From the NCBI GenBank assembly GCA_964016885.1, contig OZ024743.1, forward strand, positions 300,824,001-300,888,000: a stretch of DNA of 64,000 nt, given 5' to 3'. The notes below the pieces were generated by a model. That model did not search any database, was not told the DNA's origin, and saw nothing but the letters and a program-made list of their open reading frames with translations. Below are positions 34,205 to 60,309 of this stretch, in pieces. This DNA comes from Eledone cirrhosa. Taxonomy: Eukaryota. A program made the translations under genes and the position numbers. How positions within the stretch are numbered: the first letter of the stretch is position 1; each line of letters begins with the position of its first letter.

Positions 34205-37200
34205 TATTATATGATCATATACTGTTTATATTTTATTGAAAAGTATGGTAATTAAAATGTAGGTATTTAGTACTCGAAAACATATAATACACATGAACAT
34301 TTGAACTAGTATAATTCCACTGATGTGTTTTACCATCACCCATTAAACATAAATTTATTCAAGATATAAACCATTAAATTTATATTATATTGTGAAACGT
34401 TCGCACATAATTAGCTGAGAGTGTGAAGAGTTTTCAATTAAAAGTTGAAAACATCTAATTTATACACCTCCGTGAAATCCAATACCTCGAAATTTCACGA
34501 ATTCTCATAAAAATGCTTGCGAGTAATACTACACTCGAATATATATAACATATAAAATAGAATTAAGAAACGGTAATGTTTATTTGCTGTTACACATATA
34601 CACCAATTTCATAGCTTCATAGCTTCCCCTTTGCATAACATATTTTACTATAAGTGTGATGAAAAAGAATCATATATGGTATCATGCAGAAGAGGGGGCA
34701 CTAGTACATTAAAATAATAGTATGATGCCCAGAGTACATTTCACTTAGAGTTAAACTGATGGAACATTGCTTCAAGGCAATAAAGTGTAAGGTGTTTTAT
34801 TCAATTACTAGCAATTAACTATGTTGTTTACTGAAAATGTTACTGGCCAGGTTCTTTACACAATTGTGAACCAGCTATGTTTCAATAGATGTGAACGAAT
34901 TTTAATACAGTTGTCCCCTGCGGTTTCGTACAATATAACCGCTTTAAAGAAAGCCAAGTGAAAATTGAGATATCATGTATCCCTATAATCTGAAACAGTA
35001 ATACTTCCTCATAAAATGCCACACACAAACGCACACATTCAGAAACAGAGAATATAAATACACAAATACACCAAATGCTTCAACATTTCAGAAAGTTACC
35101 CATTCATATACAAGTATTTGCGCTTATTTAGACACCCAAGCATACAGTCAAAATTGGGGTTTTTCAAGTATGGATATAGTGAAAGCAATTAGTGGTCTGG
35201 TGTGTGCACATTTACATATTTACCTGTAAAAAAGAAGAAAATTGATCATTCATTACGGAACATAACGATACAAAATTTGTTTTTTGAAGCTGCCGTTACA
35301 ATGACGGTATTCCAAGTCACACACGTCAGATTCTCGCAAATGTATCAAAAAATGAATCATATATAATCTATAAAATATACGCAGTGAGTATATCTGAAAA
35401 TGACAGCATGCTTTGGTTGAAAATTATGGAACAAATATACAACAGTTATTTGCAAAATATGGATGTGGTAACGATTAAGTGTAGAATAGAATTGTAATTT
35501 GATGAACCACTATTATAATAAATATGAAAGATATCGAAACTAGGGATCATACGTTAAATAGGAAGGCAACGGTTAAACCTGAATTTACAATAGCCACTTT
35601 GAAATAAAGAACCAAATCTAAACGGGAAATATCTACATATATATGTGGCATTGCTCCAAAATGCAGCAGAGGCAAATCACATTGTTTTATTTTAATTTTG
35701 CACTTAGATTCAAACCATCTTTGTGGTGCATTTTTCAAGATCGGAATGAGAAGAACATTGCCTTTGTTATGTCCATCCTCGAGTATTAGTTTCCTATGTA
35801 TTTACCCATCCTCACGTACTTGTATGAGGCACCATCTTTGCGTCCAAGAATCACAAGAGTAAAATACATGTAGTAAAACATTCTATTTTAGTTGAAAGTC
35901 AATTCGACACATTTCTTAAAAACAGACACAGAAACAAATCAGACCACATCTTTACTGCCCATGAAGAGAAGCGAACGCAAATCGTAATCCTACAATCAGC
36001 CATAGACATAAACTAATACCATGCCAGCATTAACATAACTTTAAACACGTCCTATAACAACATAATCCGGTCATCTAAGTTAAACCACAATCAACCCGCA
36101 GATGGCGTTCTATGTAGAATATATATCATATTAATATGCACAACACGTTTATATTATAATTAATTTTGTACATCAAGAGTAATTATGTATAACGTTGTTT
36201 TTTGTATATGTTATGTAGTATTTATTTTCTGAGCTTGAGAGAAATAGTGATGCATTAATATAATTGGAGGATGCGTCAAAACATTACCCGTTGGCACATC
36301 TTCTGTGCATGAAACCAAAAATAAATTATGGACTTAACAGCTATGAATATATTATGAAAGTATAAAAGCATCAGGTACGCGTTCTTGTCTTCCGATAAAC
36401 ACCTGGTAGATTTTTTTTTATTGGGATGCAGAGTTGTCCATCTAATATATCGATAATATCCTGCTGAACGCCTATTAACGATTTTAAAACTTTCCCAATT
36501 ATACACATATTTAGACAAGTGCATATGTTATTGATTTCTGAAAGTTACGTTCCTAGGCGTCAAGATATTACTTTCAGGACATTGTCTTCTTTTATTTGAA
36601 AAAGTATCGTAGAATGTTGGTAATATTTTTTTCCTTTTCCATGGCGTTGAAACGACAAAAGTGACACAATTTGCTGGCTGCTAGGCAAACAACATGCATG
36701 TTATGTCCTATAATATCTTAAATACAATCTATTTTGATTTTCAATGTTTCGGCTTTTACTTTAAATTCGATAGTTGAAATGAACCAAATAAATGTATTCA
36801 ACACATAACACACAACATTAAGATGTATCATTGAATTGTTTTCCAAAATTTCCATTAAGAATTACATCTTGTTGATTATTTTCGCCCCACTCTACTCAAC
36901 GTTAAGAAATCGAAAATCGACGCATTGCTTCGTTCTTGATTGTGAAACATTTTTACTCGTATGACTAAACCAGTAATTGCAATAACATCTAAATAGTTTC
37001 ACTGAATGAATGAATACTTTTTATCGTTCTCATCATTATCGACAAGTTAGTTGCATATTCATATGTTACATCTACAGATATATCTACTTACATAACGATA
37101 ACTAATATATATACATACATTCATATATACTGACGTCTATTTCATGAGCATATAAATCCATATATATATAAACATATATATATATTTACGTATGTATATA

Positions 37201-37274
37201 TATATATGTATATATATACGTAAATATATTTGTATATATATATACGTAAATATATATGTATATATATTTGTAGG

Positions 37275-37307
<33 letters not shown>

Positions 37308-37313
<6 letters not shown>

Positions 37314-38278
37314 CGTTTCTGAATTTGTTTAGCAAGATTCTTTATCTGAAATCGTGTGTTGAAACCGATATTGTTATACTTTGGGAGGGTCATGTTGCCA
37401 ATAAGAAACACACGCACCAGTTGCTTTCACTTCAATTTAATTTAATATATATTTATAAATTTACAAATTTATAAATTTCTGGTTGGTTGGTTGGTTCCAC
37501 AACCAGATAGTTGTTTATATATATATAGTCATAGTTCTTTCGTCACACACTCTGTGACCTCTTCCGTGACTGGGGATTTCTTTCTTCGTTTCTGTGCCTT
37601 TCCTTTCTTCTATCCTACGCCATTTTGTTTGTGTGTGGGTTGCGTGCTCAGTTTGCGCATGCGCCACATCCGGGTGTCTGTGTGTGTTTGTGTTCATTTT
37701 TCTATTTTTCTATTTATATTTGTTTGTTTATTTATTTATTTATTGTTGGTTGGTTGTTTGTTCTATGTGTGTGTGTGTTTTCATTTTGTCTTGTGTGTGT
37801 TTTCATTTTGTGTGTGTTTTCAATTGTAAGTTGTTTATATATGTGTGTGTGTGTTTTCATTTTCATCCTTAATTGTAAGTTGTGATGTTGCTGTTCCACT
37901 CATATTTTCTATTTAATTTTGGTTTTAATTCTTTTATGCTTACTGCCTCTGTAATTTGCCTAAACATTGCGTCTTTCTTGTGTGTGGATTCTATTTTTAT
38001 TTCTATGCTCTCTAATTTACCCCTGTGTTCTATCTTAGCATGTTGGTAGAGCACAGATGATTCTTTACTATCTTGGAGGTCTCGCCAGTGTTCATTTATT
38101 CGTTCCCCTATACTACGAGCTGTCTCACCTATGTACACTATATTTTTGTTTCTACATTGTCCCTCAGTACATCTTATGCTATATACTACATTTCTAGTTT
38201 TACAGTTAATATGGGGGCTTATTTTACAGGTTATACATTTCTTATCTATACATGAGGGTCTTTGGAACAGGTATGTCT
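37308..38278 (-). repeat. Downstream pseudo-LTR (end of endonuclease, UTR, restart of ORF)
   Basis: Direct repeat of 41590-42559 at offset ~4282. ORF track 37142..37417 repeats the N-terminus [29 protein letters not shown]. Confidence 0.92.
37527..37571 (-). ncRNA. Hammerhead copy in downstream pLTR with core mutation (CGGAAGA)
   Basis: Identical to 41809-41853 except at 37565 (+ strand c instead of a), which changes CUGA to CGGA. Confidence 0.65.
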
Positions 38279-41200
38279 TGCTAATAAGTGTTTTTACGGA
38301 GGTACCAGGTCTTTCTACTATCTTAATATTGAGATTATGTTTCTTTAGGGCCCTTCTAAATTTGTAGGCTAGTTCGCCTCTAGGGGTTGTATTGATGAAC
38401 ATTACACTCTGGTATTTATTGCTATCATACCATGAGTTTATTCTATTGGCCTTGTTCTTAGTTCTTTCTATTCTATTCCAAAATTTGCTCCTATACAAGG
38501 GGCAGGTCCCATTTATGTCATTATTTACCATTTTTTCCCATTTGGTTCTGGCTCCTTTATACACTCTGATTCTATCTCTCTGATTGTAGCCAGAGAACTG
38601 CATACGGTGGATGAAGTGTTGTATGTGTCTCTCTAGTTCTTCGGGGTTGCACATGCGGGACACATTTCTCATCACCCGTATCAAATCCGCAATCAGTATG
38701 TTGATTTTGGTATGGTCCGAAATGGCCGAGTTTCGGTGGATCAGATGTTTGGAAGTCATGGGTTTGGCATAATGGGAATGGAGGATTTGTTTTTGGTTGT
38801 TAATAGTATCTAACCAGAGCTCTGTGTCTAGTACAGGTAATCGATGGTTGGGGTGTCTACTTGGGTAGTCTATAGTAACTCTAATGCTCTGGTGGATGGA
38901 GTTTGCTATTTGCTGGATGCTTTCCATTGTGTTTTTCTCAGGTTCCTGACTGTTCTTTAGTGGGGGTGTCTTAACTACGATGTTTATATCATCTACGTAG
39001 CGGGAGTACATTATCAGGGTTAAGCTGTCTTCTAATTGTTCTTTAAGTTTTTGTTTAAGTCTACTGTCCCACCATACCATGAACAAGTTAGCTATGTCGC
39101 CTGCAATGCTAACACCAATGGCTGCTCCTTCCTCTTGGGCATATGTTTTACCATTAGATTTGAACATATGTTCCTTAAGGGTTAATTTTATGCTGGCCCC
39201 TACCGCATGTGCAATCATTTTCTTCAGTTCATCGTGGTTTTCGGGTGTCCGTATGGCTCTGGTCCACCCGTTCCATCTATCTGTGTGGGTTTTCTTGGCC
39301 ATTGAGGTAATGGTAGGTGGTCTGCCTCTTGCTGGTCTTGTAGGGCACAGGTTGCTAAGGTCATAAGTGTCTAGGTAACTATTACTATGGGTAAGCTTAA
39401 GTAGAAGTCCCAGCTCACTGGTATCAATCCCACGGAACTCAACCTTGCTCTCGCTGATCATTTCGACGCATTTCTCCACAGCAAAATCCACGTCAATAGA
39501 TGGATACAGGGACACAACATCCATACTGCCTATTATGCAGTTTGTTAGGTCCCCAGATCGGTTACCCGCGTCGATTCTGCTGAGGAGGTCCTCCGTGCTG
39601 TCACACACATCTGGGGACATCTCAATGATGGGGCGTATGATCAGGGAGAGGAAGTAGGACAGTCTGTAGTTACTAGCAATGTTAGCCCCACAGACTGGCC
39701 GTGTTGGTGGTCCCGCGACAGGGTCCCAGCCCGTTTTATGGTCTTTTCGAAGCCCATACAACGCCGGCACGTCATTGTTCCAGGCCTGGAAGTTGTTGGC
39801 AGTCCTTTTGTTGGGCTGCATTATATTTGTCCACATCACCATATGGGCATTGAGGGTTTTTTCTCTATCCTCATGCTCCTGTGGTGTTACCTCTCTTGTG
39901 TTAGTGATGTGGGGTTGCATTGCCTGGATGTAGTTTGGCAGGCTGTCAACCGACATTCTGCCAGACTTGTCTGTTGGAAAGCATGCTATCTCTCCATTAC
40001 GCGAGCGCTGCATGAGCTTACGCAAGCCATTTGCAGATTCTTCTCCCAGTTGCTGGGCCTCTATTCTATTATGCTTCTTGCTATACTGTTCTATAATATT
40101 TCTAAGTTCGGATTTAGCTATACTAAATTGTGCTTCTGTTTGTTCATCGACCTGCGACGGCAACTGCGTGCGTTTGTTAAATGGCAAAGTCGTGGCGTGG
40201 ACTCGTCGTAGGTCGAATGATTTATCGGAGGGGTTATAAAACGGAGAGTTCCAGGCTCCTGCTTTATGTGTACTTGCGCTATTGTTAGTTGTGTTGTTTC
40301 TATTTCCACCAACAGCAGCAGCCTCAGCTTCATGGTTGTTTCTATGTCTCTCATAATTACTCCTGTCTCTTTCCACTGGCTCAATGTTGTTATCTACCCT
40401 ATTTTGTGTGTCTGTGTGTTCGTCTTGGTTATTCTCTTTGTCCTTAGTCTCCCTACTCCTTTTAATCCTATTACTTTCTCTTATTTCTCTGATTTCTGTG
40501 CTACTGTCATTACTTGTTTTCTGTGTCTGTGTGTTTGTTAAGATTGTAGTGGTGGTGAGAGGCATTGAATGTGTGTGTGTTGTTGTTGTTGATGTGTGTT
40601 GTTGTTGATGTGTGTTGTTGTCTCCGTGTGTGTGTGTGTTATCGTTGTTGTGTGTGTTGTTATTGTTGTTTGTGTTTGCGTGTCTGTTGTTGTTGTATCT
40701 GGGTATGTTGCTGTTGTTGTTGTTGTTGATGTGTGTGTTGTTGTTATTGTTGTCTCCGTGTGTGTTGTTATTGTTGTTTGTGTCTGCGTGTCTGTTGTAT
40801 CTGGGTATGTTGCTATTGTTGGTATTGTATCTGGGTATGTTGCTATTGTTGTTGTTATTGTTGTTTGTGTCTGTGTGTCTGTTGTTGTTGGGATGTGTGT
40901 TGTATATGTGTGTGCGTATATTGTTGCTTTTGTTTTTGTTTTTGATGCTCCAGCGTAGTTTCGTAAATGATTTTTCTATTTCTGACAGACAACTAATCAT
41001 ATTTACCTTCTTGAATGTCGCAAATTTGGGTGGCAGACGTAACACAGACATTTCATTATTATCTATTTTCGTGTTTCCATAAATGTTGGTATTTTCATTG
41101 TTGAACTCTTCAGATAATGAGGTGTCGGCCATGTTGATACCGTCAATTTTGTCGGGATATCTATTGGTATACTCTATAGTATCCCGATTTAGCTTTGCCT

Positions 41201-41675
41201 GTTTAAGCCACTTTAATTTTCTGTTAAAGTGCTTATTACATTCTTGAGTAATGTACTGTTCTTCGGGGCGTATAAGGCTTATAAATGTTAGTTTTTCTGC
41301 TGGTGTGGTGATTTTAGATATTTCATCTATTAGGTTACGCTTTAGTTTTTCTTGATGACTTAATTCTCTATAGATCTTCTTTTTTATGTTTAGAATTAAA
41401 GTTCGTTTTAGCCTATCTGCTTGTTTTTTGGTGAGTTGTAATCTTCTAACGTCGGTATTGATGGTGTTGGTGTAGATTCTAGAAGTGGTGCACAGTTTTA
41501 TGAAGTGTAGTTGTCGAGATGTTATGGTTTTTCGTAGACAACAGAACATGGTGGTTTTCAGTATCTTGTTAGCCTGGCTAAGGCTTACGATATTTCGTTT
41601 CTGAATTTGTTTAGCAAGATTCTTTATCTGAAATCGTGTGTTGAAACCGATATTGTTATACTTTGGGAGGGTCAT
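37869..41675 (-). CDS. Penelope-like element polyprotein: N-terminal region, reverse transcriptase, Cys-rich linker, C-terminal GIY-YIG endonuclease
   Basis: Uninterrupted ORF. The track starts it at GTG 41699; the first ATG is at 41675. RT motifs: PTDKSG, LYGLRKDHK, PTRPV, GSMDVVSLYPSI, YAQEEGAAIG, YSRYVDD, LPVLD. Linker CIDKKCITC...C. Endonuclease: NVVYSIRC...C...YIGETARSIGERINEH...HAKIEH...RQITEAVSIKELKPKLN. Confidence 0.95.
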   Translation of the reverse strand: MTLPKYNNIGFNTRFQIKNLAKQIQKRNIVSLSQANKILKTTMFCCLRKTITSRQLHFIKLCTTSRIYTNTINTDVRRLQLTKKQADRLKRTLILNIKKKIYRELSHQEKLKRNLIDEISKITTPAEKLTFISLIRPEEQYITQECNKHFNRKLKWLKQAKLNRDTIEYTNRYPDKIDGINMADTSLSEEFNNENTNIYGNTKIDNNEMSVLRLPPKFATFKKVNMISCLSEIEKSFTKLRWSIKNKNKSNNIRTHIYNTHPNNNRHTDTNNNNNNNSNIPRYNTNNSNIPRYNRHADTNNNNNTHGDNNNNNTHINNNNNSNIPRYNNNRHANTNNNNNTHNNDNTHTHGDNNTHQQQHTSTTTTHTHSMPLTTTTILTNTQTQKTSNDSSTEIREIRESNRIKRSRETKDKENNQDEHTDTQNRVDNNIEPVERDRSNYERHRNNHEAEAAAVGGNRNNTTNNSASTHKAGAWNSPFYNPSDKSFDLRRVHATTLPFNKRTQLPSQVDEQTEAQFSIAKSELRNIIEQYSKKHNRIEAQQLGEESANGLRKLMQRSRNGEIACFPTDKSGRMSVDSLPNYIQAMQPHITNTREVTPQEHEDREKTLNAHMVMWTNIMQPNKRTANNFQAWNNDVPALYGLRKDHKTGWDPVAGPPTRPVCGANIASNYRLSYFLSLIIRPIIEMSPDVCDSTEDLLSRIDAGNRSGDLTNCIIGSMDVVSLYPSIDVDFAVEKCVEMISESKVEFRGIDTSELGLLLKLTHSNSYLDTYDLSNLCPTRPARGRPPTITSMAKKTHTDRWNGWTRAIRTPENHDELKKMIAHAVGASIKLTLKEHMFKSNGKTYAQEEGAAIGVSIAGDIANLFMVWWDSRLKQKLKEQLEDSLTLIMYSRYVDDINIVVKTPPLKNSQEPEKNTMESIQQIANSIHQSIRVTIDYPSRHPNHRLPVLDTELWLDTINNQKQILHSHYAKPMTSKHLIHRNSAISDHTKINILIADLIRVMRNVSRMCNPEELERHIQHFIHRMQFSGYNQRDRIRVYKGARTKWEKMVNNDINGTCPLYRSKFWNRIERTKNKANRINSWYDSNKYQSVMFINTTPRGELAYKFRRALKKHNLNIKIVERPGTSVKTLISKTYLFQRPSCIDKKCITCKISPHINCKTRNVVYSIRCTEGQCRNKNIVYIGETARSIGERINEHWRDLQDSKESSVLYQHAKIEHRGKLESIEIKIESTHKKDAMFRQITEAVSIKELKPKLNRKYEWNSNITTYN

Positions 41676-42559
41676 GTTGCCAATAAGAAACACACGCACC
41701 AGTTGCTTTCACTTCAATTTAATTAAATATATATTTATAAATTTACAAATTTATAAATTTCTGGTTGGTTGGTTGGTTCCACAACCAGATAGTTGTTTAT
41801 ATATATATAGTCATAGTTCTTTCGTCACACACTCTGTGACCTCTTCAGTGACTGGGGATTTCTTTCTTCGTTTCTGTGCCTTTCCTTTCTTCTATCCTAC
41901 GCCATTTTGTTTGTGTGTGGGTTGCGTGCTCAGTTTGCGCATGCGCCACATCCGGGTGTCTGTGTGTGTTTGTGTTCATTTTTCTATTTTTCTATTTATA
42001 TTTGTTTGTTTATTTATTTATTTATTGTTGGTTGGTTGTTTGTTCTATGTGTGTGTGTGTTTTCATTTTGTCTTGTGTGTGTTTTCATTTTGTGTGTGTT
42101 TTCAATTGTAAGTTGTTTATATATGTGTGTGTGTGTTTTCATTTTGTCCTTAATTGTAAGTTGTGATGTTGCTGTTCCACTCATATTTTCTATTTAATTT
42201 TGGTTTTAATTCTTTTATGCTTACTGCCTCTGTAATTTGCCTAAACATTGCGTCTTTCTTGTGTGTGGATTCTATTTTTATTTCTATGCTCTCTAATTTA
42301 CCCCTGTGTTCTATCTTAGCATGTTGGTAGAGCACAGATGATTCTTTACTATCTTGGAGGTCTCGCCAGTGTTCATTTATTCGTTCCCCTATACTACGAG
42401 CTGTCTCACCTATGTACACTATATTTTTGTTTCTACATTGTCCCTCAGTACATCTTATGCTATATACTACATTTCTAGTTTTACAGTTAATATGGGGGCT
42501 TATTTTACAGGTTATACATTTCTTATCTATACATGAGGGTCTTTGGGACGGGTATGTCT
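41590..42559 (-). repeat. Upstream pseudo-LTR
   Basis: ORF track 42150..42419 duplicates the GIY-YIG C-terminus. The sequence matches 37308-38278. Confidence 0.92.
41809..41853 (-). ncRNA. Minimal type I hammerhead ribozyme in upstream pLTR
   Basis: Minus strand reads AGUCA-CUGAAGA-G-GUCAC-agagugu-GUGAC-GAAA-gaac-UA-UGACU. Stems I and II pair; stem III is very short. Confidence 0.75.
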
Positions 42560-42655
42560 AGAAGGGCCCTAAAGAAACATAATCTCAATATTAAGATAGT
42601 AGAAAGACCTGGTACCTCCGTAAAAACACTTATTAGCAAGACCCTCCCAAAGTAT

Positions 42656-42784
<129 letters not shown>

Positions 42785-43053
42785 CATATATATATATATA
42801 TATCATAGTATACATATATATATAGATTATATATATATATATATTATACATAACAAAGGAATTGTAGTAAGGAACCAGATGGACCATAACGCACCAGAGT
42901 AATCGATATTTAGGGTAGTAGAGTGGGAAATAGGAAAAAGTATAACCCCGACGGAAGAGCTCAAGCCGTTTCGACGGATATTTCTAGAGTCCAGAAATAG
43001 CCGTCGAAACGGCTTGAGCTCTGCCGTCGGGGTCATACTTTTCCTATATACTA

Positions 43054-49372: not shown

Positions 49373-53145
<3,773 letters not shown>

Positions 53146-55699: not shown

Positions 55700-58600
55700 G
55701 TACGGTATGAACAAATCTTTCCATATTTCCATTAAGAAATATGAGAAAGTTAATTCATGCTGCAACTTAAAAAAAAATACTCCTCTGGTCCTCCATTGCA
55801 TCTTGTCATTTTCACGGAGGAAGCCTCAACGATCTTGAACTTACCATCGCTGCCCACAACATGCATGCAATTTAATGTTCGACTCTACCCAGTAGCATCT
55901 GGAAAAATCCACTAGTTAGTCGCTGGCTTCAGTTACCATACAACAATTAACCTTAAAAGGAGGTTCTTTCCGAGACGTTTGAAACCAATTTGGACAGAAA
56001 ACATGAATCAGCTCTGGTATTTTAGGATGATGATGGTATTAGCCATCTCGCGTATTGAGGAGATCATTTGCAGTTCATTCTGCACAGGGATAGAACCTTG
56101 ATTCTATCACTACCACCGCATCTCCCTTCGGTGACAAACAACGGCAAGTCGCTCAATTTATTGTCCGCTTCAACAGCCGGTACAGGTGTTTTATGATGAG
56201 TGCTACAACATCAGATCAGGCCTACAATTTGACCTTTATATGTGTGACTCTCGCAAATGCTCAGCCCACTTGTAATTCACCAGAGGAATATTGAGTTCAT
56301 AGTAAATATCAGACAGTTTGGCTCCATCTTGGAACTGTTCAAAACCGATGACCTGAATGTAACACTCATTGGACTCCATAAATGAGCCATATTATTATGG
56401 ATCCGTTCCACTTGATTAGAAGAAGTTCCGCATTCCCAGGATGCCACAAGGACTGAAATTAGGCTGATCCTGGATGGATTTGTAGATTATTCTCCCAATC
56501 AGACCTGGCAAACTTCAAAACATCCCGGATCATGTTCGCCTTCAGGACAGTCCGATATACAAGTCCTCATTGAATGCAGAAGGACACACTGATTCGTCAT
56601 CGGTGAAGCGACACAACTGCGAGCCTTTTGCGCTCAACTGAAAAATATCGTTGATACCACAAGCAGTGTCGGGACACAAGCACGTCAGCAGTAGTAGAAG
56701 AAATAGAAGCAGCAGCAGTAACTAAACCACAATCACCAACATCTCTGGCAGAAACAAACCAAGCGGAAGATGAAGTTTACTGCCCTACTCACTCACCCAC
56801 TCACCACACAATAAATTCACACATAAACACCCACACAAACACGAACACACAAGCATCTGAAACAGACAACAAGATTTCGTCTCCGTCACGAGAAGATGAG
56901 AGGCAACTACTAAGAGGGGAAAAAACAAAAATGGAAACACAAGAACAAAAAAAACCCCCAAAAAATCAAACATCACACACGCCCAAACAGGAAACAAAGA
57001 TACAATAAACACATCCACAACAACATCACACCACAACCAACCAAACGAAAACATGCACTGCCGCAGCAACAAATCAGACCGACAGAAAACGTCGTACTAC
57101 TAAGGACCAACGAAAAACAGACAGCCCCCACATAGCATGAATCAAAGAAATCGAGAAGGAGATGGATATTTTTGGCACCACCACATGTAGTGAACCGCAA
57201 GACCTTATGATGTTATGTATATCGCTGGATGCCTAAAAGAACACCAGGGCAAGCTACGAATAGGTTCTAACAGTGCTACCAGAAAGGAAACCCACCAAAA
57301 ATGTAGGTGAACAATCCTGATCTTCACGAATATCCGGAGTGTAAGCAAACTATATTTCCCTTAATTAACCAGCCAAAGAGAGAGTCATAAAAATAAGTTA
57401 CATAAATATTCGTGGCGTAGGTGTCATTGTTGAAGCAGGATCGCTTACTGAATGACCTGATGTCTCTAGTTATGTATGCGACTGCCATACCTGAGACAAT
57501 GATTTCCGATTACTATCAGCATTTCTCATTTCTTATTTGGGGGTTGGGTGGCAGTGTTGAATATGAAAGGCTTTGATCTCGATGTGACGAACTTCCTGGA
57601 ACCGGACGATAAGTGGAGGTCCTGGAGGTAAGTAAGAGTGATGATGGTTTTTTCTTGTATGACGTCTGTCTACGCCTCGACCGGGTTCGGACCGCGGATA
57701 ACTTTGAGCACCTGGAAACCTTTCTGTGAACGTCTCACCTTTTACTATTAGCTGGAGACTGGAACGGCCTTTGAAACATACGCTGGTATTGTGAGGAAGT
57801 AGCTGATAGACGCGGGGGAGTGCGATAGACTCAAATACCTGATAAGCCAGTTCCAACACGCATCGAGAAGATTTCCTCAAGGCGCCAGTGTAGACCGGGA
57901 GGAAACACACACGGTCATTTAGGTCGAATATAAATACGTTTTTCGTTAGATCAGCAAATAAAGATAGTATAGGTTGTCCATATTTCCGAACAGCCGACTA
58001 TTCAGATCACAGATTTGGACTTACATGGTCGACCTAGAAATAGCATGTTCACCAGGACCTGGTTACTGGAAGCATAACACTTTTCTCCCGGTGCATAAAT
58101 CCTAGAGAATCCAAGTTACAAATTCAGTTAAGTGTAAGTTGACAGGAGGCCTCCTCAACATTAGCCGGTGCTCTCAATAGATAGATTAGAGTAAATGTCA
58201 TAGGTTTTAGTAAATAAGTGGTATTGCAACTGATGTGCTAGCAGTGATAAGGGTATCATACCATGTACTCAACGCAAAACAGGTATGTTGCATCTTCAGA
58301 GATTAGCCGCGTGCTCTATAAAACGTGGGAATAAAATATGTTTGATGGGCCCGAATGGTAAAGGCAGAGTTTGTAACAAAGCCATAATTCTGTTTTTGAA
58401 GGAGCGAGACGAACGTGTGATGAACTTTACCAGGCAGATGTGTGCAGCCATTCACACCACTTTGCTGGAGCGGGGAGATTGGAGTGGTTGACGGATTTAG
58501 GTTCCTCTCTCGACGCCCCCCTACGACGATGAGTGCTGCAAAACACGTTAATATAAGCTGAAAGTCGTGATTTCCTGGTCGTATGCATGAACTCCAGGTT

Positions 58601-59985
58601 TGGATTGTCTGTCCTACGTGTTTACGTAGTCATGGCAGACATGTTTTCAATTCTCTTCGAACCAGTAAACTGCAACTGGCAGCAGAACGGGAGTATTTAC
58701 AGTACTGTAAAGTGGGGTGTAGTAACGCTGATGAGGAAAGACGAAAACAAGTAAAACGCTTTAGAAATATTCAGACCCTTAAATCTGCTCAATATAGATG
58801 TTGACCTAGGGTGTTAGAGAAGAGGTTGATATTTGTTGTCGAGACGCAAACCTTCGCAATCCCGACCATGTCCATACATTATTACTTCCCCCCTCATGCG
58901 ATACATGATAGGGAGGAAAGGGAGTAAATCTGGCATCGGTGGGACTATGATAAACTTAGATCAATCGAAAGCTTCGATATTTACAGACTTTCCTCAAGGT
59001 CACTGATTCCGGTCCCGTTCTCTGAGGCTGGATATCAGCAATGCACAGCGTCAAGTGCTCGGTCGTAAATGGCCACCAGTTAGAACCATTTGAGATCACG
59101 TCCTTGGTGCTCAACGGCACCATCTCTGTTACCTTCTGTACGTATTTAATCTTGAGTCGTTACTGAGGAAGATGGACTTATTGCAGTGGGTATACAGCGA
59201 ATTAGTGGTGGGCAGGTGCAACGACGCATTCGGAGAGGCTTTGAGAATCCGCGAAATCAAACTGAGCAGCCTGTTCCGGAGGACTTTTAAACAAATGACT
59301 AAGGCGACTTTCAGAAAGCCATCACCTGGCAGCGTTACTGATGGGGACTGCTGGTTGAGATAAACTCAAAAGGCACTGAAATTTGGTCACATGAATGTCC
59401 GAAATGTACATAGAGTGACGAAAGAGTTCTGCCCACATTCATCCAGTGTCCGGGCAATATTCACTTGTGGAGTTATGTCGAACTGGTGTTATCACCTGTG
59501 AGACGGATATGATGATCGTTCTAGGTCATCGTGAAGATCATGCCACCACCATATTATGGGCAGAAAGAGCAGGCAGTTTTTCTCAGCCTGGTGGCTGCGG
59601 TAAAAGTGGCTGTAGCCAATCCATCATCAACGTTTTTGAGTTTCATTTCGAAAGAAACATGAAGGTGCAGAGAGAGGTGCTTCCCAACCCCAGGATATTT
59701 GCTAAAGGTTAGGTGAATGTAGCAAGAATGACCCGTGCGAATGAGCCTACTTAGTTTGCTTTAAGAGGGAGATGACTGTCTCTCCCGTGTGCCCTGAAAG
59801 CGTCGGGTGGTTCAGAATTGGTAGGTTATCTGAGTCGCCGCTATTGGAGAATATTATTGTTGTAATTGTTATTGTTAATTGTTTTGCATAATTTGTTTTT
59901 CCTCTATGATTTTGTAAACCACCACTGCACCGTCTATTTTATTGAGCCTATATATAAGCCTTCTGGTCGATAAAAAAAAAAAAAA
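55700..59985 (+). mobile_element. Decayed non-LTR retrotransposon, L1/Tx1-like
   Basis: APE motifs: KISYINIRG (~57390), LLAGDWN (~57745), SDH (~58002), PGPGYWK (~58054). RT remnants: RPL..LLNID (~58775), NLDQSKA (~58952), LLYVFNLESLLRK (~59130). The 3' poly(A) is at 59972-59985. Many stops and frameshifts; the 5' boundary is approximate. Confidence 0.8.
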
Positions 59986-60309
59986 TATTATACTAGTTTA
60001 TTATTCTTTCTCATATATGGCAAAGGTAAACAGTTGCAGTCAGTAAATCTTCCTCTGGGTGAAAGCACAGGATGTTTGTATGTTTTTCACAATTTCTAAT
60101 TCATGTTGGTTGAAGCATGTGTTTGAAAAAATCGTCATCATTGGGAGGAGGATGGCTGTGGGAATAACATTTATATTCTATGAAAATTTGTAGACCTTTC
60201 TCTTATAGAATAAAACATATTTATTAATTTAATAAGCACTTTTAAATAAACACATATATGTATATATGCATATGTAACATAACTACGTATATGTGTTTAT
60301 ACATTTATA

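What the first reader, a model, noticed from the sequence alone, without database searches (positions are those of the whole stretch)
39139..39494. Telomerase-IFD-like insertion in the RT fingers of a C-terminal-endonuclease PLE
Seen: ~120 aa separate motif A (DVVSLYPSI) from motif B' (QEEGAAIG), including ELGLLLKL..LCPTRPARGRPPTITS..RWNGW. Known: canonical Penelope RTs have a much shorter spacer here (roughly half, from memory). Telomerase RTs and PLEs with an N-terminal endonuclease carry an insertion-in-fingers domain at this position, linked in telomerase to repeat-addition processivity. Inference: this intact element may belong to a distinct PLE lineage combining an IFD-like insert with a C-terminal GIY-YIG.
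Basis: partly seen in the sequence, partly recalled or inferred. Interest (0 to 1): 0.72.

Follow-up and report, generated by a model that had tools for sequence, protein, structure and literature searches.

The report
Penelope clade with new fingers insert
This young, high-copy jumping gene and its many relatives carry an extra, conserved piece of about 70 amino acids in their reverse transcriptase at the spot where telomerase has its own insertion; the piece is predicted to fold differently from the telomerase one, so it likely arose independently, likely helps grip the RNA template, and likely marks a branch of Penelope-like elements that our searches did not find described.

Summary
An unbroken 1,268-aa Penelope-like ORF (minus strand, 37869-41675) has 128 aa from motif A to motif B'. 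Poseidon- and Nematis-like controls have 55-60 and Naiad-like ones 78-87. [quoted passage not shown] With the insert removed, these RTs still form one long-stemmed group (100/100), closest to Nematis-like elements. AlphaFold models the insert as ordered (pLDDT 92-98 in the full model): helices plus a basic loop, no beta sheet. Telomerases with an IFD align no more residues to it than RTs without one. So it sits at the IFD site but is likely not an IFD homologue. Its function is inferred only: a template or duplex clamp. I found no description in ten literature searches, but Repbase, Dfam and several key papers were out of reach. The scan reported the same thing once before, on another piece of this genome (e1-9508900).

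The parts
37869..41675 (-). Single ORF, 1,268 aa: N-terminal region, Asn-rich tract, telomerase-like RT, thumb, Zn-finger-like linker, GIY-YIG endonuclease
   Evidence: ATG at 41675, no stop until 37869; fold most like TERTs, Z 15.5, rmsd 3.6, 372 aligned
39237..39449 (-). The insert proper, about 71 aa (ORF aa 743-813; P0002 218-288): helix, short helix, basic CP.R...G..P..T loop, short helices, conserved R and W
   Evidence: edges are approximate
39495..39521 (-). RT motif A (DVVSLYPSI)
39114..39137 (-). RT motif B' (QEEGAAIG; family form Q..GG(A/P)IG)
38988..39002 (-). RT motif C (RYVDD)
   Evidence: translation; position computed from the frame
39963..39974 (-). TDKS, the family's form of the PLE 'DKG' motif (DKS in 64 of 67 scored)
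38226..38252 (-). CX4CX2C Zn-finger-like linker with Nematis-like short spacing to the GIY core
   Evidence: against Fig. S2 of PMC8557442
37896..38195 (-). GIY-YIG endonuclease core with CCHH-type residues
   Evidence: weak match to 1mk0_A, intron-associated endonuclease 1, E 0.16
40251..40940 (-). In-frame Asn/Thr/His-rich low-complexity tract of about 230 aa (67 Asn in 225 aa) upstream of the RT
   Evidence: only about 20 aa at this place in homologue P0143
37308..38278 (-). 3' pseudo-LTR (ORF end, 3' UTR, first codons of the ORF)
   Evidence: 965 of 970 bases identical to 41590-42559
41590..42559 (-). 5' pseudo-LTR, the 5'-truncated upstream tandem copy; holds the ORF's start codon
42559..42642 (+). 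Inverted 84-nt piece, reverse complement of 38275-38358
42643..42662 (+). Short 'tail' matching the first codons of the ORF, running into (TA)n
   Evidence: sequence
41809..41853 (-). Type I minimal hammerhead motif with intact core (CTGAAGA ... GAAA)
   Evidence: read by motif and base pairing, not matched by Rfam
37527..37571 (-). Second hammerhead copy, core changed to CGGAAGA
   Evidence: 19 of 19 other genomic copies have CTGAAGA here
37140..37310 (.). (TA)n-rich target, left flank
42660..42790 (.). (TA)n target, right flank

Best explanation
[quoted passage not shown] Shown: spacer length, conservation over 173 distinct spacers, C-terminal endonuclease, pLTR, tail, hammerhead motif and (TA)n anatomy, and one long-stemmed RT group. 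Predicted: the fold. Inferred: (1) the element moves like other EN+ PLEs, by nicking AT-rich DNA and priming reverse transcription inside a tandem transcript (shown for a Poseidon element in PMC11167929); (2) the lineage is a sister or derived offshoot of Nematis; (3) the basic loop with conserved Arg, Gly, Pro and Trp touches nucleic acid next to the active site. Step (3), at about 0.45, is the weakest.
For: Length: 128 aa against 55-60 in canonical controls. Conservation: 100 of 102 measurable rows at 122-134 aa down to 27% identity, the two short ones being apparently chimeric gene models; 82 of 82 measurable among 150 representatives at 117-159; E229, P253, R255, G259, P262 and W279 in 82-87% of 173 spacers. 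Order: pLDDT 92-98 over the insert in the 743-aa model; 79-97 in the 160-aa model. Top covariation pairs inside the insert (257-277, 233-264, 234-243, 255-279) fit a compact unit (weak). Not TRAP-like: no beta strand of 3 or more residues in the insert in either model. Of the 160-aa model, VIA aligns 79-80 residues to Tribolium TERT (82-residue range), 79 to LINE-1 (84) and 79 to R2 (85), and no more to IFD-bearing TERTs: human 76-78 of 146, Tetrahymena 74 of 180, yeast 79 of 127, Candida 80 of 150; Z 3.0-5.4, rmsd 3.0-3.7. Insert against Naiad insert: hhalign probability 1%. Clade: SH-aLRT 100 for 48 rows and 100/100 for 16 rows, spacer middle removed. Nearest profile is Nematis-like for RT (score 393 against 298 Poseidon, 159 Neptune-like, 129 Naiad) and for endonuclease (155, 109 Poseidon, 70 Naiad). 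Endonuclease: 107 of 124 long-enough members match the motif; of 14 of the 17 others that I inspected, 13 have a variant GIY-YIG and one ends early. Charge: loop 252-270 has mean net charge +4.2, and +2 or more in 96% of 173. Recent activity: 1,748 first-look candidates, all 41 listed matches at 100% rounded identity; 19 copies 99.0-99.8% identical; two further full-length ORFs among 4 stretches taken.
Against: No nucleic-acid contact was modelled or measured, and I had no access to model coordinates. VIA Z values for the small model are low, and the tool warns that a weak match does not show that folds differ; a hinge or a wrong model could hide likeness. A grouping of this family with Naiads is not rejected (p-AU 0.31). 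The full-spacer profile alignment lines up the family's Trp with a Naiad Trp before the shared helix, which could be a vestige of common origin. Placement is unstable: beside the Nematis-like group in one tree, inside it with 38/64 support in the other. The trees hold one Neptune-like row and no Hydra, Athena, Coprina, Chlamys or TERT, and clade labels were assigned by motif, not from reference sequences. Homologues were found with an insert-bearing query, so short-spacer sisters may be under-sampled. Profile scores depend on alignment depth, which differs between groups. A profile of canonical PLE RTs finds all 175 members at E < 1e-5, so curators may already hold such families.
Confidence: 0.62

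Rival explanations
1. The lineage is already in the curated record (Repbase or Dfam Penelope, Neptune-like or Nematis entries, or papers I could not read), and the long spacer is ordinary for that subgroup, though little remarked.
For: Members occur in well-studied genomes: Octopus vulgaris, Holothuria leucospilota, Sanderia malayensis, and a Stylophora pistillata gene-model fragment. A canonical-PLE profile detects 175 of 175. Neptune is paraphyletic in the published tree. One tree nests the group in the Nematis-like set.
Against: PMC8557442 states that canonical C-terminal EN+ clades lack an IFD and lists only Naiad, Chlamys and sporadic Coprina cases. Every canonical row in its Fig. S1 has 57-60 aa. 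The family's motif B and A forms were not found in its supplement text (long rows are cut at 400 characters). A 2026 preprint still lists eight clades.
Confidence: 0.25
2. The insert is a divergent true homologue of the TERT and Naiad/Chlamys IFD, kept from the common ancestor of PLEs and telomerase and lost in the other canonical clades.
For: Same position between two bracing helices; a length like TERT's (128 against 115-149); TERTs are the best whole-RT structural matches; family plus Naiad is not rejected (p-AU 0.31); one aligned Trp and a predicted beta bridge 254-280 roughly where Naiad has its insert.
Against: Predicted helices and loop against TERT's beta-sheet TRAP; no gain in aligned residues with IFD-bearing TERTs; insert-to-insert profile probability 1%; RT and endonuclease are both closest to short-spacer Nematis-like elements. 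TERT likeness is expected for any PLE RT.
Confidence: 0.12
3. The lineage and the independent origin are right, but the insert is a protein-contact or scaffold module (dimer surface, contact with the N-terminal domain, or binding of the element's own pLTR or hammerhead RNA away from the active site), not a template clamp.
For: A Poseidon protein is predicted to dimerise (PMC11167929). Covariation shows the insert packing on itself and on the following helix (231-295), with no reliable pair to palm or thumb. The net charge of the whole insert is only +1.4.
Against: The most conserved residues lie in a basic Arg/Gly/Pro loop, and at this site in TERT the insertion handles template and primer (PMC10055720, title and passage).
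Confidence: 0.3

Closest known systems
Nematis clade of C-terminal EN+ Penelope-like elements (as shown in PMC8557442 Figs S1, S2)
   Same: RT then C-terminal GIY-YIG with CCHH; short CX2-5CxxC linker; closest RT and endonuclease profile among the groups tested; pLTRs and hammerhead motif
   Different: A-B' spacer 117-159 against about 60; DKS for DKG; motif B GG(A/P)IG; L(R/L)KDHK; stem of 1.3 (LG+G4) to 2.3 (mixture model) substitutions per column
Neptune clade
   Same: C-terminal endonuclease with a cysteine linker; microsatellite targeting linked to that linker (PMC8557442)
   Different: Neptune's linker is about 30 aa longer and its spacer is 57; lower RT profile score (only one Neptune-like row available)
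Naiad/Chlamys (N-terminal EN+ PLEs with IFD)
   Same: Extra sequence at the same RT site; (TA)n targets in Naiads
   Different: Endonuclease at the other end; Naiad insert about 20 aa against about 70; DKA; canonical hammerheads absent there, present here; no insert profile similarity
TERT insertion-in-fingers domain (IFDa, TRAP, IFDc)
   Same: Position between motifs A and B', flanked by two helices; similar length
   Different: TRAP is largely an extended beta sheet (PMC10055720); this insert is predicted as helices and a basic loop and adds no aligned residues
Adineta vaga Pen3_Av and Pen5a_Av (Penelope/Poseidon group; PMC3846280)
   Same: Precedent for an insert between RT motifs 3 and 4 in a C-terminal EN+ PLE, and for long Asn-rich inserts in PLE ORFs
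   Different: That insert is short, Cys-rich and limited to two families; their Asn-rich tracts lie after the RT core, whereas here the tract lies before it
Hydra clade
   Same: C-terminal endonuclease, Nematis-like linker, (TA)n targets, aquatic invertebrates
   Different: Hydra has no IFD, DKT, a divergent motif B and no CCHH, and is under 3 kb

Membership tests
EN+ Penelope-like elements | Telomerase-like RT in a single ORF | tested here: met
   TERTs fill the top structural ranks, best Z 15.5, rmsd 3.6, 372 aligned
EN+ Penelope-like elements | GIY-YIG endonuclease with CCHH motif | tested here: met
   hhalign probability 99.7% to the endonuclease of the Nematis-like set
EN+ Penelope-like elements | Partial tandem pLTRs, inverted 5' piece and tail | tested here: met
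EN+ Penelope-like elements | Hammerhead motif in the pLTR | tested here: met
   core and stems read at 41809-41853; cleavage untested
Nematis | Short CX2-5CxxC linker before a C-terminal GIY-YIG | tested here: met
   against Fig. S2
Nematis | No IFD (A-B' about 60 aa) | tested here: not met
   128 aa against 55-60
Nematis | DKG motif | tested here: not met
   DKS in 64 of 67 scored
Nematis | RT nests within the clade | tested here: inconclusive
   outside the Nematis-like group, inside with 38/64; group labelled by motif, not by reference sequences
Neptune | Long cysteine linker and A-B' about 57 aa | tested here: not met
   short linker and 128 aa
Neptune | RT groups with Neptune | tested here: inconclusive
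   only one Neptune-like row (L033), flagged as a long branch
Penelope/Poseidon | No cysteine linker; short spacer; RT in the Poseidon group | tested here: not met
   linker present; separate from the Poseidon-like group, 100/99
Hydra | DKT, no CCHH, divergent motif B, no IFD | tested here: not met
Naiad/Chlamys | N-terminal endonuclease | tested here: not met
   endonuclease is C-terminal
Naiad/Chlamys | DKA motif (Naiad) and lack of a canonical hammerhead | tested here: not met
   DKS; hammerhead motif present
Naiad/Chlamys | CxC motif between endonuclease and RT | not tested
   not looked for
Naiad/Chlamys | Insert homologous to the Naiad IFD | tested here: inconclusive
   insert-to-insert probability 1%, one aligned Trp in the full-spacer alignment; family plus Naiad p-AU 0.31
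TERT IFD | Lies between motifs A and B', braced by two helices | tested here: met
   helices 204-217 and 289-309 in the model
TERT IFD | Middle part (TRAP) is largely an extended beta sheet | tested here: not met
   in predicted models only: no strand of 3 or more residues in 218-288; definition from PMC10055720
TERT IFD | Superposes on solved IFDs | tested here: inconclusive
   74-80 residues aligned to IFD-bearing TERTs against 79-80 to IFD-less RTs; Z 3.0-5.4, rmsd 3.0-3.7; leans negative, but weak matches do not prove different folds
TERT IFD | Needed for processivity and template handling | not testable with these tools
   needs biochemistry

The most novel reading that the evidence does not exclude
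A ninth major PLE clade, widespread in marine invertebrates and missed by Pfam RVT_1, that evolved on its own a TRAP-analogous template clamp of a new fold at the telomerase IFD site. It would show that this site of telomerase-like RTs is a repeated hotspot for processivity modules, and it offers a young, unbroken element for testing what such an insert does outside telomerase.
Probability: 0.35. Interest if true: 0.72.

Novelty: new variant of a known kind. Interest (0 to 1): 0.52.

Why it matters
The current scheme says that C-terminal-endonuclease PLEs lack an insertion in the fingers, and uses the IFD of N-terminal-endonuclease PLEs as a link to telomerase (PMC8557442), while leaving open what it does and whether it arose more than once. 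A large lineage with a TERT-sized insert of a predicted different fold argues for repeated, independent gains at this site. It also points to an under-classified group of repeats in invertebrate genomes: Pfam found nothing in this ORF, and precomputed RVT_1 hits appear on 1 of 120 homologues, a chimeric model. Because unbroken, near-identical copies exist, the published in vitro PLE assay (PMC11167929) can test the insert's role directly.

Tried and rejected
Single-copy oddity, frameshift or assembly artefact: rejected by near-identical copies and conserved homologues. Disordered insert: rejected in both models. Pfam: only a chance COMMD9 hit, E 0.19; the scan of the whole alignment was too large and was not repeated; PF26215 is not in the library. 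Rfam: only AT-repeat miRNA chance hits and no hammerhead family. PDB by sequence: a weak endonuclease hit and bacterial defence or retron RT motif matches. Foldseek with the 160-aa model: no match at E <= 0.001; VIA-wide best Z 5.4 and no chain clearly matching the insert alone, which does not show that the fold is new. ESM Atlas: unnamed eukaryotic clusters at 0.93-0.94 for the region, 0.79 or less for the insert among named clusters. No RNA holder listed. The RVT_1 search of the genome gave no PLE that I used; no outgroup ORF was recovered from the 2 of 5 loci tried. The Naiad motif pattern gave 0 matches in this genome, so Naiad-like controls came from metagenome contigs. dN/dS of the insert against 12 genomic relatives was 0.15-0.43 in the 9 with any synonymous change, like the RT core, but rests on few, non-independent changes. 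Covariation (217 rows, Neff 148) gave no trustworthy insert-to-other-domain pair; the pairs with D425 look like noise. The careful mixture-model tree did not finish, so the quick tree was used; 5 of 91 rows were dropped as too short or without motifs. The look-up of earlier findings by sequence returned nothing. Papers not held: PMC5850863, PMC5995583, PMC1890498. Arkhipova 2006, Koyama 2013 and Lue 2003 were not read.

Full report
What is there. The finding lies in a minus-strand reading frame of 1,279 codons between stops (37869-41708), which gives 1,268 aa from the ATG at 41675. It is flanked by 970-bp direct repeats, 37308-38278 and 41590-42559, with 965 identical bases. An 84-nt inverted piece (42559-42642) and a short tail matching the ORF's first codons follow, and both ends run into (TA)n. 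A minimal type I hammerhead motif lies in each repeat. Its core is intact at 41809-41853 and changed in the 3' copy, whereas 19 of 19 other copies have the intact core. This is the anatomy described for EN+ Penelope-like elements (PMC8557442, PMC3846280, PMC4209133). The family is young and abundant: a 701-bp probe gave 1,748 first-look candidates, with all 41 listed matches at 100% rounded identity; 19 copies are 99.0-99.8% identical; two of four stretches taken hold full-length ORFs; a subfamily about 95% identical in protein also exists.

The observation. 39138-39494 encodes 119 aa between the two quoted motifs; from the motif A Asp to the motif B' Gln is 128 aa. The same measure gives 57-60 in Poseidon-like proteins (91 measurable of 119), 55-60 in the Nematis-like set (111 of 120), 78-87 in Naiad-like ORFs, and 56 and 58 in two other PLE families of this genome. 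Counted by hand from Fig. S1 of PMC8557442, canonical clades have 57-60, Naiad-Amil 81, two Chlamys 102 and 119, human TERT 115 and Tetrahymena TERT 149. Alignment to the canonical controls puts the extra part at about 71 aa, 39237-39449.

It marks a lineage. A protein search gave 131 relatives, 120 listed, from 69% (Octopus vulgaris) down to 26% identity. Of 102 rows with both motifs, the query included, 100 have 122-134 aa; the two short ones look like chimeric gene models. A profile search of 50%-cluster representatives gave 3,384 hits at E <= 1e-30, which may include canonical PLEs; of the best 150, 82 have both motifs and all 82 have 117-159 aa. These sets were found with an insert-bearing query, which favours such hits. 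Named hosts are a mollusc, an echinoderm and two cnidarians; most hits are unnamed contigs. One labelled as a bacterium is probably a eukaryotic contaminant (inference). A C-terminal GIY-YIG motif is present in 107 of 124 long-enough members, and in variant form in 13 of the 14 others that I inspected. Other shared marks are DKS for DKG, L(R/L)KDHK, GG(A/P)IG and RYVDD.

With the middle of the spacer removed, the family is one side of a branch in both trees: SH-aLRT 100 for 48 of 86 rows under a mixture model, and 100/100 for 16 of 37 rows under LG+G4, on a stem of 2.3 and 1.3 substitutions per column. Its place is unsure. It lies beside the Nematis-like group in the first tree and weakly inside it in the second, and a grouping with Naiads is not rejected (p-AU 0.31). 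Profile scores favour Nematis-like elements for both RT and endonuclease, and the short cysteine linker matches Nematis in Fig. S2. The trees lack Hydra, Athena, Coprina, Chlamys and TERT, hold one Neptune-like row, and use labels that I assigned by motif.

Is it an IFD? By position yes, by predicted fold likely not. AlphaFold on a 101-row alignment gave mean pLDDT 93.2 and pTM 0.90, with 92-98 over the insert: helix 227-237, helix 240-245, an extended loop, and two short helices before the long helix 289-309. A second model of the 160-aa motif A to B' region agrees on the two helices and the loop (pLDDT 88.7, dipping to 79-82 in the loop). The TERT IFD has two bracing helices joined by TRAP, largely an extended beta sheet (PMC10055720). 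The whole RT matches TERTs best, as expected for a PLE. For the 160-aa model the number of aligned residues is the same whether or not the target has an IFD: 79-80 for Tribolium TERT, LINE-1 and R2 (82-85-residue ranges), and 74-80 for human, Tetrahymena, yeast and Candida TERT (127-180-residue ranges), at Z 3.0-5.4. About 80 residues, roughly the insert, stay unmatched. The aligner gives ranges only and warns that weak matches do not prove different folds, so this leans against homology without closing the question. The insert shows no profile similarity to the Naiad insert (1%), though one Trp lines up.

How it likely works. The element would move like other EN+ PLEs: a tandem transcript, an endonuclease nick in AT-rich DNA, and reverse transcription begun inside the RNA, which leaves the tail (shown for a Poseidon element, PMC11167929; inferred here). 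The insert's most conserved residues (P253, R255, G259, P262, W279 and E229; 82-87% of 173 spacers) cluster on a loop with mean net charge +4.2, and covariation ties that loop into a compact unit (weak). At the same site the telomerase insertion handles template and primer. I therefore take a template or duplex clamp as the most likely role (about 0.45), ahead of a protein-contact or RNA-recognition module. Nothing here shows a contact.

Novelty. PMC8557442 (abstract, passages, sections 11, 12 and 22, supplement parts 1, 53 and 54 of 59, and a motif search of the supplement whose long rows are cut) says that canonical C-terminal EN+ clades lack an IFD, and notes sporadic IFD-like regions in Coprina. 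PMC3846280 (first fifth of the text, passages, one supplement searched) reports a short Cys-rich insert at this site in two rotifer families, and Asn-rich ORF inserts. A 2026 preprint (10.64898/2026.07.22.740005, passages only; supplements not seen) lists eight clades. PMC11167929 was read as abstract and first part of the main text, PMC10055720 and PMC4209133 as passages. Ten searches (one search was on the telomerase IFD) found no description of this lineage. Three papers were not held, three more were not read, and Repbase and Dfam cannot be searched here. A canonical-PLE profile finds all 175 members, so curated entries may exist.

Verdict. The feature is real. It is a new variant of a known kind: likely an undescribed deep lineage of C-terminal-endonuclease PLEs, near Nematis, with its own conserved fingers insert. 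Interest 0.52.

Noticed in passing
window 37527-37571 (-): The 3' pLTR hammerhead core of this copy differs by one base from the 5' pLTR copy and from 19 of 19 other copies, so this ORF-intact copy may have a dead 3' ribozyme.
   Followed up: partly
window 40251-40940 (-): A ~230-aa in-frame Asn/Thr/His-rich tract upstream of the RT, kept in two other full-length copies; it recalls the Asn-rich inserts of Adineta vaga Penelopes but lies at another position. The Octopus vulgaris relative P0003 has an Asn/Ser-rich stretch there too.
   Followed up: partly
window about 49660-52300: An older, 91%-identical 3' half of the same family (ORF piece 50961-51872, intact hammerhead core) with further pLTR fragments and tails in (TA)n.
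   Followed up: partly
L029-L055 (own genome): Two other PLE families with long open frames and canonical spacers: a Neptune-like one (L033, 56 aa) and a Nematis-like one (L037, 58 aa, 887-aa frame); also a decayed Poseidon-like copy (L026).
   Followed up: partly
window about 56000-60000: A GC-richer stretch (0.43-0.44) with broken reading frames that may be a decayed retroelement; not identified.
   Followed up: no
P0076 and P0484, P0487, P0536: PLE proteins filed under bacterial metagenome-assembled genomes, probably eukaryotic contamination.
   Followed up: no
P0352, P0353, P0375, P0383, P0301: Family members with further expansions inside the insert (spacer 141-159 aa), mostly just before the conserved Trp, which suggests a tolerant surface loop there.
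   Followed up: no
P0111, P0106, P0088, P0121: Host gene models (such as an Octopus vulgaris leucine-rich-repeat protein) that include pieces of this family's RT; annotation chimeras or exonisation.
   Followed up: no
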